Assembly (NCBI GenBank): GCA_035454605.1
Contig: DATIGQ010000081.1
Span: forward strand, 6,151 to 70,150
Direction: 5' to 3'
From: Terriglobales bacterium
GTDB taxonomy: Bacteria > Acidobacteriota > Terriglobia > Terriglobales > Acidobacteriaceae
DNA: 64,000 nucleotides
Of the stretch, positions 4,476 through 62,661 are shown piece after piece (the stretch's first letter is position 1; every line of letters starts with the position of its first letter). The notes below the pieces were generated by a model. The model had not been told where the DNA came from. It did not search any database and worked only from the letters and a program-made list of their open reading frames with translations. The position numbers and the translations under genes were made by a program.

Positions 4476-4559
4476 GGCGGTTGGCTATTGGCTCTTGGCG
4501 GCTGGCCAGTTCACCTGGCGTTCAGCACTTAGCATTAAGCACTTGGCACCTGGCCAGCG
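4476..4559. repeat. 7-nt periodic degenerate tandem array (12 heptads) directly abutting the start codon of the giant gene
   Basis: Read directly: ggcggtt ggctatt ggctctt ggcggct ggccagt tcacctg gcgttca gcactta gcattaa gcacttg gcacctg gccagcg. Confidence 0.8.
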
Positions 4560-6420: not shown

Positions 6421-6476
6421 ATTCAGTTGTCAGTGGTCAGCAGCTTCTAGCTTCTAGCTCCTGCCACGACCGCCGA
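6421..6476. repeat. 7-nt periodic array (8 heptads)
   Basis: attcagt tgtcagt ggtcagc agcttct agcttct agctcct gccacga ccgccga, between the DUF2292-like gene and the zinc-ribbon gene. Confidence 0.75.
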
Positions 6477-26320: not shown

Positions 26321-26761
26321 ATGGCAACCCATTTCCCCGGCGCCGGGGAAATTGCGCGTAAGTGGTACGTGGTGGACGCCGAGGGCGAGACCCTGGGGCG
26401 TCTGGCCAGTCGTGTGGCCCGCATGTTGAACGGCAAGAACAATCCTGTGTATACGCCGTTTCTCGATACCGGCGATCACGTCATCGTAGTCAACGCCGCC
26501 AAGGTGCGCGTGACCGGCATGAAGTCGGAGAAGAAGACCTATTACAGCTACTCCGGCTATCCCGGCGGCATCAAGGCCGAGAGCTTCCGCAAGCGCGCCG
26601 CGCGCCGGCCGGAAGTTGTGGTGCGTGACGCCATCGTCGGCATGCTGCCCCACACCAAGCTGGGTCGCCAGATGGCCCGCAAGCTGCGCGTGTACGCCGG
26701 CGACAAGCATCCCCATCAGGCCCAGCAGCCGGAGACCCTGGCACAGGCCAAGCGGGCTTAG
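26321..26761 (+). CDS. rplM: 50S ribosomal protein L13
   Basis: [33 protein letters not shown]...GDHVIVVNA. Confidence 0.95.
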
Positions 26762-26854
26762 AAGTGCAAGTCGCGGCCGTTCACGGCCGTGGATCCTTAT
26801 TTGCGAAAGGGTTTTGAGCTGAAAGCGGATTGCTGACGGCGAATCGCTGATCTT

Positions 26855-27250
26855 ATGGCAGAACTCATTCAGTACTACGGAACGGGACGGCGGAAGTCGA
26901 GCGTAGCCCGTGTCTTTCTGCGTCCCGGCAACGGCGGCTTCCTGGTGAACGGCCGCCCCTTCGAGCAGTATTTCGTCACCGAAGCGCAGCGCGTGCAGGC
27001 CAAGCAACCCTTGGCCACCACCGAGACCGGCTCGGCCTTCGACGTGGTCGCCAACGTTGCCGGTGGCGGCGTCAACGGCCAGGCGGGCGCGGTGAAGCTG
27101 GGCGTGGCCCGGGCGTTGCTCCAGTTCAATGGCGAACTGCGTGCCCGGCTGAAGTCTGCAGGGCTGCTCTCTCGCGACTCTCGCATCAAGGAGCGCAAGA
27201 AGTACGGCCAAAAGGGGGCACGCAAGCGCTTCCAGTACTCGAAGCGGTAA
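26855..27250 (+). CDS. rpsI: 30S ribosomal protein S9
   Basis: [16 protein letters not shown]...[17 protein letters not shown]. Confidence 0.95.
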
Positions 27251-27334
27251 GTGCAGTTTCTCGTTTCTCGTTTTTCGTTTTTCGTTTCTGGTTTCTGGTT
27301 TTGCTGGCCACTGGCCACCGACCACTGACCACGG
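27251..27334. repeat. 7-nt periodic array (12 heptads) starting at the first base after the rpsI stop
   Basis: gtgcagt ttctcgt ttctcgt ttttcgt ttttcgt ttctggt ttctggt tttgctg gccactg gccaccg accactg accacgg. Confidence 0.85.
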
Positions 27335-27435
27335 TTTCACAATTTTCCCTGGCGGTCCTCAAGGGCATCCGGGGCATCAATCCTGAGCGACCGGCTTCGG
27401 CCGCCGCAAAGGATGCAGACCACTGAGGAGGTCTA

Positions 27436-28320
<885 letters not shown>

Positions 28321-39684: not shown

Positions 39685-39719
39685 CCCTGAAAACTGAGTA
39701 CTGGCAACTGAGAACTGTT
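39685..39719. repeat. 7-nt periodic array (5 heptads) starting at the receptor stop codon
   Basis: ccctgaa aactgag tactggc aactgag aactgtt. Confidence 0.7.
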
Positions 39720-43772: not shown

Positions 43773-43780
43773 TGGTCTTA

Positions 43781-43815
43781 CTTCGCAGATCGCCGATCGC
43801 AGATCACAGATTGGC
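43781..43815. repeat. 7-nt periodic array (5 heptads) after maf
   Basis: cttcgca gatcgcc gatcgca gatcaca gattggc. Confidence 0.65.
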
Positions 43816-45442: not shown

Positions 45443-45970
45443 ATGACCGACCACGCCAAGACTGAACTCTCTGAAACTCTCTCCGAGCCTCGCACCACGC
45501 TTTCTATCGTCGAGATCCAGAAGATCCTGCCGCACCGCTATCCTTTCCTGCTCATCGACCGGGTCATCGACCTCACGCGCAAGCAGCGCATCGTGGCCAT
45601 CAAGAACGTGAGCGTGAACGAGCCCTATTTCGCCGGCCACTTTCCCGGACAGCCCATCATGCCGGGCGTGCTGATCGTGGAAGCCATCGCCCAGGCCGGC
45701 GGCGCGCTGCTGCTCACCGAAGTCGAGGACCGCGACGACAAGCTCATGGTGTTCACCGGCATCGAGCGCGCCCGTTTCCGCAAGCCGGTGCTGCCCGGTG
45801 ATCAGCTTCGCATCGAGGTCGAGGTCGTGGCCTGGCGCATCACCGCCGTCCGCATGCAGGGCAAGGCTTACGTCGGCGACAAACTGGCCTGTGAGGCGAC
45901 CGTCAGCTGTGCGCTGGTCGATCGCCGCCGCGCCCAGGCTTCGGAAGAAGCCGGCGCGCCTGAAGGATAG
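45443..45970 (+). CDS. fabZ: 3-hydroxyacyl-ACP dehydratase FabZ
   Basis: ILPHRYPFLLIDRV...NEPYFAGHFPGQPIMPGVLIVEAIAQ. Confidence 0.95.
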   Translation: MTDHAKTELSETLSEPRTTLSIVEIQKILPHRYPFLLIDRVIDLTRKQRIVAIKNVSVNEPYFAGHFPGQPIMPGVLIVEAIAQAGGALLLTEVEDRDDKLMVFTGIERARFRKPVLPGDQLRIEVEVVAWRITAVRMQGKAYVGDKLACEATVSCALVDRRRAQASEEAGAPEG

Positions 45971-45972
45971 CC

Positions 45973-46000
45973 TCGAAACCGGAACTTGAGACTCGAGACT
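45973..46000. repeat. 7-nt periodic array (4 heptads) spanning the fabZ-lpxA junction and the lpxA TTG start
   Basis: tcgaaac cggaact tgagact cgagact. Confidence 0.6.
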
Positions 46001-47659: not shown

Positions 47660-47707
47660 TGGAACGACTTGCTTGAAACTCGAAACTAAAAACTGGAAAC
47701 TGTCTGT
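47660..47707. repeat. 7-nt periodic array (~7 heptads) after lpxI
   Basis: tggaacg acttgct tgaaact cgaaact aaaaact ggaaact gtctgt. Confidence 0.75.
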
Positions 47708-48172
47708 GTGAAAGAAACCGCTCGCCTCGCTGATCAGCTCCAACGCTCGTACGCCGGTCGCGCATGGCACGGCCCGTCCTTGCGTCAGGTCCTGGCCGGC
47801 GTCGACGCGCGACGCGCCGCCGCTCATCCCGTCCGGCACACGCACTCCATCTGGGAACTGGTGCTGCACGTCACCACCTGGAACCGCGCCGTCCTACGCC
47901 GGGTCGAAGGGCGGAACATTCGCGTCTCCGCTGCGGAAAATTTTCCTAAGGTCACCGACACCGGCCCGGCGGCATGGAAGCAAGCCCTGACTTCGCTCGC
48001 CGATGCGCACCGTGCTCTGCACCGGGCCATCGTTCGCCTGCCCGATTCCCGCCTCGGGCGCAAGGTACCGGGCAAGCCACACTCGCTCTACTTCATGCTG
48101 CATGGCCTGGTGCAACACAACCTCTACCATGCGGGACAGATGGCGTTACTGAAGAAGGCAGGAAGGAAGTAG
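47708..48172 (+). CDS. DinB-family (DinB_2/DUF664-like) four-helix-bundle protein
   Basis: HSIWELVLHVTTWN...HNLYHAGQMALLKK. GTG start. Confidence 0.8.
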   Translation: MKETARLADQLQRSYAGRAWHGPSLRQVLAGVDARRAAAHPVRHTHSIWELVLHVTTWNRAVLRRVEGRNIRVSAAENFPKVTDTGPAAWKQALTSLADAHRALHRAIVRLPDSRLGRKVPGKPHSLYFMLHGLVQHNLYHAGQMALLKKAGRK

Positions 48173-48211
48173 CAGTTCTCAGTTCGTCGTTCGCAGATCG
48201 CCGTTCGTTCT
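48170..48211. repeat. 7-nt periodic array (6 heptads) between convergent genes, overlapping the last ~11 codons of the TPR/receiver ORF
   Basis: tagcagt tctcagt tcgtcgt tcgcaga tcgccgt tcgttct. Confidence 0.7.
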
Positions 48212-53290: not shown

Positions 53291-53325
53291 TCGGCCTTTG
53301 GCTTTGGTCTCCTGGCTGTGGCTCA
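53291..53325. repeat. 7-nt periodic array (5 heptads, weaker) after miaA
   Basis: tcggcct ttggctt tggtctc ctggctg tggctca. Confidence 0.5.
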
Positions 53326-60953: not shown

Positions 60954-61431
60954 CCAGGCTTGCTTGACCTGCGCCCTCGCGGCGCAGTGAGTTCGCCACC
61001 AGGGCTCCCATCGTCCCACCCAGCATTGCACCTAAAGCGAAGCGCGCCAGCGGCCAGTTGCCGTGCACTCCTGCCATCTCGGCCGCGAAATCCAGCAAGC
61101 TGGCTGCAAGCACGATGGCCAGCGCCCTGAGCAGTGTCTTCCGGCTGGCCTCGACCCACGCGCCTGCGGCAGCTCCCAGGTAGATGCCCAGACAGCGCGC
61201 GCACACCGCAACCGGCATGCCCGCGATCCAGAACGAACGCGCCGGATCCTGATGACACACCAGCGAGAAGAACTGCCAAATGGCGAAACTTAGGAGGGGA
61301 AATCCAGCGAGTGACAATAGCGGCGCGCCGACTCCTGCCGATGCGAGTGCAGTGGGCAAGGCGCTCACCAACACCGGATGCGGATTGTCATCCCGAGCCC
61401 GCAGCGGCGGGCGAGGGATCTGCTCTTCCAT
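60943..61431 (-). CDS. DUF2085-family membrane protein; start uncertain
   Basis: CHQDPARSFWIAGMPVAVCARCLGIYLG. A REP-like element lies in the 5' part, so the true start may be GTG 61374. Confidence 0.7.
   Translation of the reverse strand: MEEQIPRPPLRARDDNPHPVLVSALPTALASAGVGAPLLSLAGFPLLSFAIWQFFSLVCHQDPARSFWIAGMPVAVCARCLGIYLGAAAGAWVEASRKTLLRALAIVLAASLLDFAAEMAGVHGNWPLARFALGAMLGGTMGALVANSLRREGAGQASLATD
61384..61420 (+). repeat. REP-like element copy (variant with expanded GC-rich centre)
   Basis: attgtcatcccgagcccgcagcggcgggcgagggatc. Confidence 0.6.
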
Positions 61432-61446
61432 CACCAAATCACCCAA

Positions 61447-62661
61447 TCACAAAATAATCCCCAGCTTCTTCCCCACCCTTCCCAACGTCTCCAGCGCCTT
61501 CTCCAGTTCCTCCCGCGTATGCGTGGCCGTAACGATGGTGCGGATGCGGGCCTTGCCCTCGGGCACCGTCGGAAAGGCGATTCCGGTCGCCATTACGCCC
61601 GCGGCAAACAGCTCGCGCGAGAACTCCATGGCCAGTCGCCCTTCACCGACGATGACCGGCGTGATGGGCGTCTCACTGGCCGGCGTGTTCACGCCGCCGA
61701 TGTTGAAGCCCAACACGCCCAGTTCCTTTTTGAAGAAGCGCGTGTTCTCCCACAGCTTCTCGATGCGCTCCGGCTCCTGCTCCAGGACCTCGAAGGCTGC
61801 AATGCAGGTGGCCGCAACGGAAGGCGGATGCGAAGTCGAGAAGAGGAACGGCCGCCCGCGGTGATACAGGAACTCGATCAGGTCGCGCGTGCCGCACACG
61901 TATCCACCCAGCGCGCCGATCGCCTTCGACAGCGTACCCACCTGAATGTCCACGCGCCCGTGCACGCCGAAGTGGTCGATGGTGCCGCGGCCGTTGCGCC
62001 CCAGCACGCCCGAAGCGTGCGCGTCATCCACCATCATGATGGCGCCGTACTTCTCCGCCAGGTCGCAGAGCGCGGGCAGTGGTGCGATGTCGCCGTCCAT
62101 GGAGAATACGCCGTCGGTGATCAGCAGCTTGCGGCCTGGCTGTCCGGCGATTTCTTTCAGTTGCTCCTCCGCGTGGGCGACGTCCTTGTGCCGGAAGACC
62201 TTGATGGTGGCGCGGGATAGCCGTGCCCCGTCAATGATGGAGGCGTGGTTCAGCTCGTCGGAGACGATGAAGTCTTCGCGCCCCAGCACCGCCGAAACCG
62301 TCCCTGCGTTGGCGGTGAATCCGGACTGGAACACTACCGAGGCCTCGACGTTCTTGAAGCGCGCAATCTTCTCTTCCAGTTCCATGTGTAAGGACATGGT
62401 TCCGGCGATGGTGCGCACCGCTCCCGATCCCACGCCGAACTTGCGCGTAGCTTCGAGCGCGGCTTCACGCAGCTTGGGGTGCGTGGTCAGGCCCAGGTAG
62501 TTGTTCGAGGCCAGGTTGATCACCCGCTTGCCGTCGAACGTACACACCGGGGCCTGCTCGTCCTCCAGCACCCGCAGGCGGAAGTACGTGCCCTTCTGCT
62601 TCAGGTCGTTGAGCTGGTCGGTGAGATAGGAAAGAGGATTGGCGCGCGTTGCGGTCGTCAT
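61447..62661 (-). CDS. kbl: Glycine C-acetyltransferase (2-amino-3-ketobutyrate CoA ligase), AONS family
   Basis: VINLASNNYLGLTTHP...FQSGFTANAG...DDAHASG...TLSKAIG (PLP Lys). Confidence 0.85.
   Translation of the reverse strand: MTTATRANPLSYLTDQLNDLKQKGTYFRLRVLEDEQAPVCTFDGKRVINLASNNYLGLTTHPKLREAALEATRKFGVGSGAVRTIAGTMSLHMELEEKIARFKNVEASVVFQSGFTANAGTVSAVLGREDFIVSDELNHASIIDGARLSRATIKVFRHKDVAHAEEQLKEIAGQPGRKLLITDGVFSMDGDIAPLPALCDLAEKYGAIMMVDDAHASGVLGRNGRGTIDHFGVHGRVDIQVGTLSKAIGALGGYVCGTRDLIEFLYHRGRPFLFSTSHPPSVAATCIAAFEVLEQEPERIEKLWENTRFFKKELGVLGFNIGGVNTPASETPITPVIVGEGRLAMEFSRELFAAGVMATGIAFPTVPEGKARIRTIVTATHTREELEKALETLGRVGKKLGIIL

What the first reader, a model, noticed from the sequence alone, without database searches (positions are those of the whole stretch)
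27251..27334. Family of intergenic arrays with strict 7-nt periodicity but locus-specific, gradually drifting units
At least ten loci carry 4-12 consecutive heptads: 4476-4559, 6421-6476, 27251-27334, 39685-39719, 43781-43815, 45973-46000, 47660-47707, 48170-48211 and 53291-53325, with a weaker case at about 26806-26850. Most begin exactly at or within a few nt of a stop codon: rpsI, maf, fabZ, lpxI, dinB, miaA and a TonB-dependent receptor. Units differ between loci (TTCTCGT, GCACTTG, NGAAACT, GATCGCN, AACTGAG, NNNCAGT...). Within an array they mutate stepwise, for example ttctcgt > ttttcgt > ttctggt > gccactg > accactg. The conserved property is therefore the 7-nt phase, not the sequence. 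They are not CRISPRs, coding repeats or simple microsatellites, and I do not know a described function. Possible roles are Rho-utilisation or termination signals, binding sites for a periodic RNA- or ssDNA-binding protein, or products of a slippage or templated-insertion process acting at gene ends.
Basis: seen in the sequence. Interest (0 to 1): 0.62.

Follow-up and report, generated by a model that had tools for sequence, protein, structure and literature searches.

The report
Heptamer repeat modules with partner gene
The 7-base repeat runs between genes are real, and they belong to a genome-wide set of fixed-size "word" modules that occur only in genomes carrying a small four-helix-bundle gene which is itself framed by the same repeats, giving a candidate partner for the long-unexplained bacterial heptamer repeats.

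Summary
Nine of the ten listed loci have a clear lag-7 peak. Across this 3.29-Mb Terriglobales (Acidobacteriota) genome there are about 210 heptad and 75 octad arrays, against 4-14 for each control lag. They abut stop codons more often than random placement allows.

The units are not locus-specific. They fall into about 15 word families, with 6 of 7 positions conserved across up to 30 copies. Modules have a fixed size of four full units plus a partial one. The "drift" at 27251-27334 is two different modules set end to end.

The new point is the link to a gene:
- All six PF05635/TIGR02436 four-helix-bundle genes here are bracketed by inverted arrays of these words.
- So are 28 of 29 such genes in relatives (array on at least one side).
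- So are 8 of 8 on plasmids from three other phyla, mostly STRR-bearing cyanobacteria.
- Six related genomes without the gene have arrays only at background level; 8 of 9 with it show an excess.
- Words track the protein lineage.
- Cassettes are gained or lost between two species of the same genus, once precisely inside a stop codon.

Protein-to-word binding is inferred, not shown.

The parts
27256..27301 (.). Module A directly after the rpsI stop (TAA at 27248-27250). It has six to seven units of TTYTSGT, which is the reverse complement of the AAACGAG/NGAAACG word family.
   Evidence: TRF period 7, 6.6 copies, 92% matches. Family assignment. rpsI is confirmed as Ribosomal_S9.
27304..27334 (.). 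Module B, abutting module A. It has four units of RCCACYG, the same word family as the arrays that flank the PF05635 gene on contig C56 (GCCACTA/TAGTGGC).
   Evidence: TRF period 7, 4.1 copies. It falls in cluster 3 with cassette 2.
4476..4559 (.). Composite array abutting the start of the 1490-aa gene on the minus strand. TTGGCTN-type units (the word of the C155 cassette, NAGCCAA) are followed by about four GCAYTTN units.
   Evidence: Lag-7 fraction 0.56 against 0.17-0.34 for other lags, p = 0.0002. Units read.
6421..6476 (.). Two short modules: three NNTCAGT units, then three AGCTYCT units.
   Evidence: Lag-7 fraction 0.61, p = 0.0002. TRF finds 6442-6459.
26806..26850 (.). Weak array NNGCTGA x5 in the rplM-rpsI spacer. 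Relatives carry GCTGANN or GCTAGRA arrays at the same spacer.
   Evidence: Lag-7 fraction 0.47, p = 0.0016. Arrays at about 2300-2450 of many rpsB loci, for example L020, L028, L036, L069, L071. rplM is confirmed as Ribosomal_L13.
39685..39719 (.). AACTGNG-family module of four to five units. This is the word family of the C141 cassette.
   Evidence: Lag-7 fraction 0.61. TRF 39687-39717. Family.
43780..43811 (.). GATCGCN module of four units, 8 nt after the stop of the 43212-43772 gene.
   Evidence: Found by my detector. TRF 43783-43811. Lag-7 fraction 0.68.
45973..46000 (.). Short NGAGACT/NGGAACT array of three to four units, filling the spacer after the stop at 45970.
   Evidence: Lag-7 fraction 0.62, p = 0.0004.
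47672..47702 (.). NGAAACT module with exactly four units. This is the largest word family of the genome, with about 30 copies.
   Evidence: It matches the pattern GAAACTN x4 with one mismatch at C81:53825-53851.
48170..48211 (.). TCNCAGT array of about six units, between convergent gene ends. The word resembles that of the array upstream of the C141 cassette gene (TCGCAGT TCACAGT).
   Evidence: Lag-7 fraction 0.63. TRF 48175-48207. Cassette sequence.
61430..61457 (.). Octad array ATCACCNA x3.5 from the AAATCACC family.
   Evidence: Found by my detector. TRF period 8. Family.
53291..53325 (.). Doubtful member: its periodicity is not clearly 7.
   Evidence: Lag 6 = 0.48 and lag 7 = 0.46, p = 0.04.

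Best explanation
The arrays are dispersed copies of short periodic 'word' modules. Each has four full units of 7 or 8 nt plus a partial fifth, about 30-35 nt in all.

They form one system with small cassettes built as [word array] - one gene - [inverted word array]. The gene encodes a PF05635/TIGR02436 four-helix-bundle protein. This family is related to the DGR protein Avd, and its solved relatives are deposited with five chains per entry. Each protein lineage has its own word.

The genome holds three forms:
- complete cassettes;
- gene-less inverted pairs;
- many solo modules, which are what the window contains.

Cassettes and modules are inserted or lost at gene boundaries, typically flush with or inside a stop codon.

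**Inferred, not shown:**
- The protein oligomer reads the array one word per subunit.
- This recognition keeps six of seven positions constant.
- It underlies the spread or retention of the modules, much as RAYT proteins relate to REP/REPIN elements.
- The effect on neighbouring genes is probably small, since the modules lie in spacers or 3' ends. A regulatory side-effect is possible.
For: **Shown:**
1. All 6 PF05635 genes of this genome have arrays on both sides, inverted and word-matched. The base rate for any gene having arrays at both ends is 1.1%.
2. In 29 related genomes, 28 of 29 PF05635 loci have an array within 200 nt. The base rate is 12%, binomial p about 5e-25. Fourteen are matched inverted pairs.
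3. A tblastn search of 72,556 plasmids hits 39 records, most of them cyanobacteria (Nostoc 19, Calothrix 4). All 8 fetched loci have arrays on both sides with cassette-specific words, inverted in most. They come from Nostoc, Calothrix, Anabaena, Pseudanabaena, Geminocystis, Trichormus, Gemmatirosa and Azospirillum.
4. Presence and absence agree. Six related genomes without PF05635, from two families, have lag-7/8 arrays at control-lag level. Eight of 9 genomes with it have an excess of 12-190 arrays per Mb, and the contrast holds inside both families. Fisher p = 0.0014, not corrected for phylogeny.
5. Solo arrays match the cassette words of their own genome more often than those of other genomes: G001 10/33 against <=6, G026 11/24 against <=4, G025 8/30 against <=5.
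6. The largest 'orphan' word in this genome, GAAACTN, flanks a PF05635 gene in relatives G016 and G005. G016 has the most such arrays, 75.
7. Word similarity >=0.75 is seen in 2/2 cassette pairs above 85% protein identity, in 26% at 60-70%, and in <=1% below 60%.
8. Module size is fixed and one position per unit is free.
9. Of the 11 cassettes in the same-genus genome G001, 5 are absent from collinear sites here. One is a clean 467-nt insert placed inside a TGA stop.
10. The closest solved relatives, 2GSC (E = 8e-25) and 2RLD, each have five chains in the entry.
Against: - No binding, expression or mobility experiment exists.
- Only about 30-45% of solo arrays match a cassette word of the same genome at my threshold.
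- The two largest families here have no cassette in this fragmented assembly.
- G023 has no detectable PF05635 yet carries 5 GAAACTN x4 arrays. G019, with one weak copy, has 7.
- G014 has six copies but only a small excess of arrays.
- The correlation covers 15 genomes of one order and is not phylogenetically corrected.
- Co-inheritance of gene and arrays as one unit would also produce the word-protein covariation.
- A four-helix bundle has no known nuclease or recombinase activity, so any mobility needs an unknown helper.
- After stop codons the solos show an orientation bias of 27:9. A simple double-stranded-DNA site model does not predict this.
Confidence: 0.6

Rival explanations
1. A selfish cassette with its debris. 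The PF05635 cassette is a small mobile element whose ends happen to be periodic. Solo and paired modules are MITE-like derivatives or deletion remnants. The protein is cargo, for example an immunity or addiction function, and does not read the arrays.
For: - Cassettes sit wedged between conserved genes: nrdB|nrdA, cas6|cas4, and stop|start junctions.
- Empty sites exist in a same-genus genome.
- The same site can hold unrelated cassettes: C116 here against G001:C12, 25% protein identity, octad against heptad.
- Gene-less inverted pairs are present.
- The family occurs on plasmids.
Against: - Neutral debris should decay at all positions. Instead six of seven positions stay fixed across about 30 copies while one is free.
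- Both arms and the solos share a word that changes together with the protein.
- There is no transposase or integrase in the cassette.
- The arms share a word in any register rather than forming a defined terminal inverted repeat.
Confidence: 0.2
2. RNA-level cis elements that do not depend on PF05635. The arrays would be binding platforms in mRNA for a general RNA-binding protein (S1, cold-shock proteins, CsrA, Rho). They would control termination, translation coupling or decay at gene ends, as MacGregor proposed for TAACTGA repeats.
For: - Arrays abut stop codons.
- Stop triplets are commoner on the sense strand, 0.37 against 0.24 per unit.
- There is an orientation bias after stops, 27:9.
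- An array is retained in the rplM-rpsI spacer across many relatives.
- Pradhan et al. 2022 (bioRxiv 10.1101/2022.06.06.494920) report reporter effects of heptamer repeats in Nostoc.
Against: - S1, cold-shock proteins and Rho are universal, yet the arrays are missing from six related genomes.
- A single general binder cannot read about 15 different words.
- There is no C-over-G skew.
- There is no unusual RNA structure at the main locus, z = +0.58.
- Across co-directional spacers, words occur in both orientations, for example the octad family 9 against 7.
Confidence: 0.1
3. Plain replication slippage. Heptamers would be favoured by the geometry of the DNA polymerase (the hypothesis of Mrazek et al. 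2007, as quoted in PMC4692102). The repeats would be neutral and survive only outside genes.
For: - Neighbouring identical units occur, such as TTCTCGT TTCTCGT TTTTCGT TTTTCGT.
- Unit number differs between the two same-genus genomes.
- Very long arrays occur in some relatives and cyanobacteria: 42 units in L099 and 39 in Anabaena.
Against: - Run lengths are not geometric: 3 is about equal to 4, and 5 is rare.
- The same words recur at dozens of loci.
- Sister genomes with similar composition lack the arrays.
- Arrays are tied to one gene family.
Confidence: 0.07

Closest known systems
STRR (short tandemly repeated repetitive) heptanucleotide sequences of heterocystous cyanobacteria, and the general over-representation of heptameric repeats in bacteria (as summarised in Rehm et al. 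2015, PMC4692102)
   Same: Both are tandem 7-nt units, several unit types per genome, mostly intergenic, and of unknown function. Cyanobacterial plasmid copies of the four-helix-bundle gene are bracketed by such repeats.
   Different: This lineage is Terriglobales (Acidobacteriota). The modules here are short and of fixed size, octads occur alongside heptads, and a partner gene family is identified. The papers I could search do not mention such a gene.
Xanthomonas GGGAATC and Nostoc GGGGA(C/T)T heptamer repeats (Rehm et al. 2015, PMC4692102)
   Same: Both are intergenic, often occur as convergent inverted pairs, are retained between the same genes in related species, and vary in length. The closest solved relative of the proteins here, 2GSC, is a Xanthomonas campestris protein.
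   Different: The words here are not G-rich, so a G-quadruplex reading does not apply. There are about 15 words instead of one.
TAACTGA direct repeats of marine Beggiatoaceae, cyanobacteria and Bacteroidetes (MacGregor 2015, PMC4679880)
   Same: Sets of two to six heptamers at gene boundaries, some overlapping ORF ends, and present in ribosomal-protein operons. Related words such as AACTGAG occur here.
   Different: Those repeats lie mostly just upstream of start codons and in one orientation. Here the arrays are anchored at stop codons, with no excess at starts.
REP/REPIN elements and their RAYT genes
   Same: The logic matches: a dispersed short repeat family, and a single gene flanked by inverted copies of that same family. 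There is one repeat family per gene lineage, and the repeats lie in spacers just after genes.
   Different: The partner is a four-helix-bundle protein, not a Y1/HUH transposase. The repeat is a tandem word array, not a palindromic hairpin.
ORF-bearing intervening sequences of 23S rRNA (the source of the Pfam name 23S_rRNA_IVP) and the DGR accessory protein Avd
   Same: The protein family or superfamily is the same (PF05635; a weak hit to bAvd PF22296 and NF033474). In both, an ORF is bounded by inverted repeats and inserted into a conserved transcript.
   Different: The cassettes here lie between protein-coding genes, not in rRNA. No reverse transcriptase or template/variable repeat is adjacent. 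The Avd equivalog score, 38.7, is below its cut-off of 80.

Membership tests
Prokaryotic intergenic heptamer tandem repeats (STRR-type) | Head-to-tail units of 7 nt, three or more copies | tested here: met
   TRF and lag-7 scans.
Prokaryotic intergenic heptamer tandem repeats (STRR-type) | Strong intergenic excess of period 7 over neighbouring periods | tested here: met
   166 arrays per Mb of intergenic DNA for lag 7, against <=5 per Mb for lags 4-6 and 9-13.
Prokaryotic intergenic heptamer tandem repeats (STRR-type) | STRR in the strict sense: heterocystous cyanobacteria | tested here: not met
   The closest relatives are Terriglobales/Acidobacteriaceae MAGs.
REP/REPIN-RAYT system | Partner gene flanked by inverted copies of the dispersed repeat | tested here: met
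   6/6 here, 14 matched pairs in relatives, and 8/8 on plasmids with arrays on both sides, most of them inverted pairs.
REP/REPIN-RAYT system | Partner is a Y1 (HUH) transposase-like RAYT | tested here: not met
   The genes match PF05635 and TIGR02436 only.
REP/REPIN-RAYT system | The repeat unit is itself an imperfect palindrome | tested here: not met
   The units are direct repeats. The RNA fold of the main array is no better than shuffles, z = +0.58.
PF05635 / TIGR02436 four-helix-bundle proteins (for the flanked genes) | HMM score above the curated cut-off | tested here: met
   53.7-134.6 bits against 33.8 for all six genes. TIGR02436 scores 127 and 75 bits against 24.
PF05635 / TIGR02436 four-helix-bundle proteins (for the flanked genes) | Homopentameric assembly | not testable with these tools
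   Only indirect: the relatives 2GSC and 2RLD have five chains per entry.
Diversity-generating retroelement (Avd, RT, TR/VR) | Avd equivalog above cut-off with an adjacent reverse transcriptase | tested here: not met
   NF033474 scores 38.7 against 80. The only reverse transcriptase in the genome is on another contig and looks like a group II intron type by its motifs.
23S rRNA intervening sequence | Element lies inside a 23S rRNA gene | tested here: not met
   The cassettes lie between protein-coding genes. There are no Rfam matches in the window or on the first 9 kb of C113.
Rho-utilisation (rut) site | C-rich, G-poor on the transcript | tested here: not met
   Sense strand is G 27.1%, C 25.5%.
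Intrinsic terminator | GC-rich hairpin followed by a T run | tested here: not met
   None at 27251-27334. The only candidate in 26700-27500 is at 26771-26792.
CRISPR array | Repeats of 20 nt or more separated by unique spacers | tested here: not met
   The units are contiguous 7-8-mers without spacers.

The most novel reading that the evidence does not exclude
PF05635/TIGR02436 four-helix-bundle oligomers are the long-sought specific partners of bacterial heptamer and octamer repeats, including the cyanobacterial STRRs. Each subunit would read one 7-8-nt word. Each protein lineage would have its own word and would maintain or spread a genome-wide population of modules from a cassette framed by the same words. 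This would be a second REPIN-RAYT-like repeat-and-partner system, built on a non-enzymatic Avd-like scaffold and found in at least four phyla.
Probability: 0.4. Interest if true: 0.85.

Novelty: new variant of a known kind. Interest (0 to 1): 0.72.

Why it matters
Intergenic heptamer repeats have been noted since the cyanobacterial STRRs and were found over-represented in many bacterial genomes. [quoted passage not shown]

This genome and its relatives give a concrete, testable candidate. It is a small, widespread protein family of unknown function, whose genes are framed by the same repeats and whose presence predicts the repeats.

If binding is confirmed, three things follow:
- It explains a common feature of bacterial spacers.
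- It assigns a role to a very large 'four helix bundle protein' family.
- It provides a set of natural protein-word pairs with programmable 7-8-nt specificity.

Even without that, annotators should know that these arrays create and displace stop codons at gene ends.

Tried and rejected
- **Rho or terminator role.** Rejected on composition, terminator scan and fold.
- **Known RNA families.** No Rfam match in the window or on C113:1-9000. My guess that the array-rich C113 region was an rRNA operon with an intervening sequence was wrong.
- **'Three-frame stop module' as the sole reason.** Only 33 of 114 co-directional arrays close all three frames on the sense strand.
- **Stem selection between cassette arms.** The best in-phase register gives 0.83 identity, against 0.74 for other registers. 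That is no more than picking the maximum would give.
- **Retro-copying by a partner reverse transcriptase.** The only RT is a lone group II intron-like gene.
- **Clean empty sites for solo modules between the two same-genus genomes.** The spacers are too diverged to define junctions.
- **C150 inverted pair as a seventh cassette.** It is two separate arrays around ordinary genes.

**Tools and sources that failed:**
- Mrazek 2007 is not held.
- My gene calls are a home-made codon-usage caller. Stop positions are exact, but starts are approximate and some calls, for example on C113, are wrong.

Full report

The main locus reads GTGCAGT, six units of TTYTSGT, a junction unit, then four units of RCCACYG. 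It starts one base after the TAA stop of the upstream gene. That gene is rpsI (Ribosomal_S9). It is preceded by rplM and followed by rpsB. TRF reports two period-7 arrays there.

For nine of the ten listed loci the lag-7 match fraction is 0.47-0.74, with other lags mostly 0.1-0.3 (up to 0.40); shuffle p <= 0.0016. Locus 53291-53325 is doubtful.

I laid the whole assembly in the Python box: 3.29 Mb, 222 contigs, 64% G+C. I called genes with a simple codon-usage caller, which gave 2833 genes and 88% coding.

Windows with at least 18 of 21 lag-k matches occur in intergenic DNA 66 times for lag 7 and 17 times for lag 8. For lags 4-6 and 9-13 the count is 0-2. Coding DNA shows only the expected multiples of three. 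At 16 of 21 there are 209 lag-7 and 75 lag-8 arrays, against 4-14 for lags 5, 10, 11 and 13. The periodic signal is therefore far beyond composition, and it is a property of the genome rather than of this window.

**2. Where the arrays sit**

Arrays are about half as dense in divergent spacers as in co-directional or convergent ones. In co-directional spacers half of them begin within 10 nt of the upstream stop, and many include the stop in their first unit. Against random placement within the same spacers, adjacency to stops is 49% against 27%, with a maximum of 36% in 2000 trials. Adjacency to starts is 23% against 19%.

The arrays are not C-rich. They have 52% G+C against 60% for other spacer DNA. 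Stop triplets are somewhat commoner on the sense strand. The main array is not predicted to fold better than shuffles, and there is no terminator.

**3. The units are not locus-specific**

Pairwise comparison of array profiles, over all rotations and both strands, shows far more similar pairs than a scrambled-unit null: 4.6% against 0.5% at 0.7 for heptads, and 16.8% against 0.3% for octads.

Clustering gives the following families:

| Period | Word | Arrays |
|---|---|---|
| 7 | AGCANTC | 24 |
| 7 | AAACTNG | 24 |
| 7 | AACTGNG | 21 |
| 7 | ACTRGCC | 20 |
| 7 | ACCNAGT | 17 |
| 7 | AGCTAGN | 9 |
| 7 | AANAGCC | 9 |
| 7 | AAACGAG | 8 |
| 7 | ANAGCGG | 8 |
| 8 | AATCATTG | 29 |
| 8 | AATTCGNC | 11 |
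| 8 | ACCCGATG | 8 |
| 8 | AAATCACC | 7 |
| 8 | AAATGANC | 5 |

Printed in register, the copies of a family nearly all have four full units plus a partial one. One position varies freely and the other six stay constant over about 30 loci. Run lengths of good units are not geometric: 3 is about equal to 4, and 5 is rare.

The 'drift' at the main locus is therefore two modules of different families set end to end.

**4. The organism and the literature**

The best rpsB relatives are Terriglobales/Acidobacteriaceae MAGs from soil and peat. Their rpsB neighbourhoods carry 44 lag-7 arrays, including a recurrent array in the rplM-rpsI spacer.

Intergenic heptamer repeats are a described but unexplained class:
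- STRRs, and the general excess of heptamers, are summarised in Rehm et al. 2015.
- TAACTGA repeats are described in MacGregor 2015.

Earlier notes of this scan list many genomes with such arrays. One note (e1-2507364) proposed PF05635 proteins as partners. I treated that as a lead and tested it.

**5. The partner gene in this genome**

The genome has six PF05635 matches. Every one is bracketed by arrays on both sides. The arrays are inverted relative to each other and carry a word specific to that cassette. Four are heptad cassettes and two are octad cassettes, and the gap between arrays is a constant 370-410 nt.

All six words belong to multi-copy families of 21, 20, 17, 9, 29 and 5 arrays. 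Only 1.1% of all genes have arrays at both ends.

The proteins match TIGR02436 'four helix bundle protein'. They hit the DGR Avd models only weakly. Their closest solved relatives are 2GSC from Xanthomonas campestris and 2RLD, each with five chains in the entry.

There are also about 15 gene-less inverted pairs with 4-80-nt loops, mostly of the AATCATTG octad.

**6. Relatives and other phyla**

In 29 related genomes, 28 of 29 PF05635 loci have an array within 200 nt, and 14 are matched inverted pairs at my threshold. The base rate is 12%.

A tblastn search of 72,556 plasmids finds the protein on 39. Most are cyanobacteria (Nostoc 19, Calothrix 4, and Trichormus, Anabaena and others), which are the classical STRR organisms.

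All eight loci I fetched have arrays on both sides, inverted in most, each cassette with its own word:

| Organism | Phylum | Upstream / downstream word |
|---|---|---|
| Nostoc | Cyanobacteriota | AGTAGGG / CCCTACT |
| Calothrix | Cyanobacteriota | GGTGTAG / CTACACC |
| Geminocystis | Cyanobacteriota | AAAGGGA / TCCCTTT |
| Anabaena, Pseudanabaena, Trichormus | Cyanobacteriota | cassette-specific heptads |
| Gemmatirosa | Gemmatimonadota | octads |
| Azospirillum | Alphaproteobacteria | ACRGAGG / CCTCYGT |

**7. Presence and absence**

From I chose genomes with 0 to 11 copies and sampled 110-200 kb of each.

- Six genomes without the family have lag-7 plus lag-8 counts equal to twice the control-lag mean. 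They are G020 and G023 in the window's own family, and G030, G031, G034 and G038 in a second family.
- Eight of nine genomes with the family have an excess of 12-190 per Mb. They are G000, G001, G013, G021, G006 and G014, and G025 and G026 in the second family.
- G019, with one weak copy, has no excess.

Fisher p is 0.0014 and is not phylogenetically corrected, but the contrast is present inside both families.

A whole-genome pattern search for GAAACTN x4 gives 0 in most genomes without the gene and up to 75 in G016. G023, which has no PF05635, has 5. That is the main counter-example.

The G016 and G005 cassettes are flanked by this very word. So this word, which has no cassette in this genome, does have one in relatives.

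**8. Word and protein go together**

Solo arrays match their own genome's cassette words more often than foreign ones.

I compared the cassettes of this genome with the 11 of the same-genus genome G001:
- Two pairs are 91% and 95% identical in protein and keep the same word.
- One same-site pair at 69% identity has changed NAGCCAA to NAGCGGA on both arms.
- One same-site pair at 59% identity has a different word.
- At the C116 site a 25%-identical protein with heptads (AATCAGC) replaces the octad cassette.

Over 54 cassettes, word similarity >=0.75 is confined to protein pairs above 60% identity. The two arms share the word in any register rather than a fixed base-pairing register.

**9. Gain and loss**

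Orthologous spacers of the two same-genus genomes, about 85% identical in flanking genes, often differ by whole arrays.

Five of the 11 G001 cassettes are absent from collinear sites here. The cleanest case is a 467-nt insert consisting exactly of array, gene and inverted array. It sits between ...CGGT and GATTGATG, that is inside the TGA stop of the upstream gene, and the junction creates a new TAA.

This shows how arrays come to be flush with stop codons. After stops, solo modules prefer the orientation of the array that lies upstream of the cassette gene, 27 against 9, p = 0.004.

**10. Reading**

Shown:
- The arrays are members of word families.
- They have a fixed module size.
- They share words with cassettes of one gene family.
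- Arrays at above-background density occur only where that family occurs, with one partial exception.
- They turn over at gene ends.

Inferred:
- The protein oligomer binds the arrays, one word per subunit. The five chains in the solved relatives and the four-plus-one units per module fit this, but it is only a numerical coincidence so far.
- Binding explains both the position-specific conservation and the spread.

The closest analogy in logic is REPIN-RAYT. Membership is excluded because the partner is not a transposase.

The rivals are: a selfish cassette with inert debris; an RNA-level regulatory site for a general binder; and plain slippage. Each explains part of the data. They fail, respectively, on the position-specific conservation, on the presence/absence pattern, and on the fixed size and shared words.

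**11. Limits**

- There are no transcript or population data.
- My gene calls are crude.
- The comparative sample is 15 genomes of one order plus eight plasmid loci.
- The absence of a published link rests on a search of open-access papers only.

Noticed in passing
G000 contig C116:1919-2400 against G001:C12 (locus L258): The same chromosomal site holds unrelated cassettes in two species of one genus. One has an octad word, ATTGAATC; the other has a heptad word, AATCAGC, and its protein is only 25% identical. This suggests cassette replacement at a preferred site.
   Followed up: partly
L277 (Anabaena sp. 90 plasmid), L278 (Pseudanabaena plasmid), L275 (Nostoc edaphicum plasmid): Four-helix-bundle cassettes are wedged between cas6 and cas4 of CRISPR loci, and between the two ribonucleotide reductase subunit genes. 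The Anabaena copy has a 39-unit array on one side.
   Followed up: partly
L099 (G033:C31) 1093-1387 and 1828-2041: A PF05635 gene is flanked by giant arrays of 42 and 30 units (CARAGCR). They are in direct rather than inverted orientation, unlike the usual short inverted modules.
   Followed up: no
window 26806-26850 and about 2300-2450 of many rpsB loci (for example L020, L028, L071, L077): The rplM-rpsI spacer carries a heptad array in many Terriglobales. In relatives the units GCTAGGA contain Shine-Dalgarno-like AGGAG, so the array may double as the rpsI ribosome-binding region.
   Followed up: no
G000 contig C113:200-4900 (locus L283): This stretch is unusually dense in modules: at least eight heptad and octad arrays, including a heptad hairpin at 2291-2361. 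My gene calls there are unreliable, and it is not rRNA (no Rfam or tRNA hits).
   Followed up: partly
G000, many contigs, for example C73:29913-30021, C75:3353-3437, C208:18856-18958: The octad word CAATGATT forms about a dozen gene-less inverted pairs with 8-50-nt loops, resembling MITE or REPIN doublets.
   Followed up: partly
G000 contig C186:640-2175: The only reverse transcriptase of the genome sits on a 2.5-kb contig. Its motifs (YIPKPDG, YADD, a maturase-like tail) resemble a group II intron protein.
   Followed up: no
window 26771-26792: A terminator-like GC hairpin with a T run lies directly after rplM, inside the rplM-rpsI operon spacer and upstream of the weak heptad array.
   Followed up: no
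genome G023 (no PF05635 detected): It carries five GAAACTN x4 arrays although the gene family is not detected. These could be relics after gene loss, a missed divergent gene, or an assembly gap.
   Followed up: no
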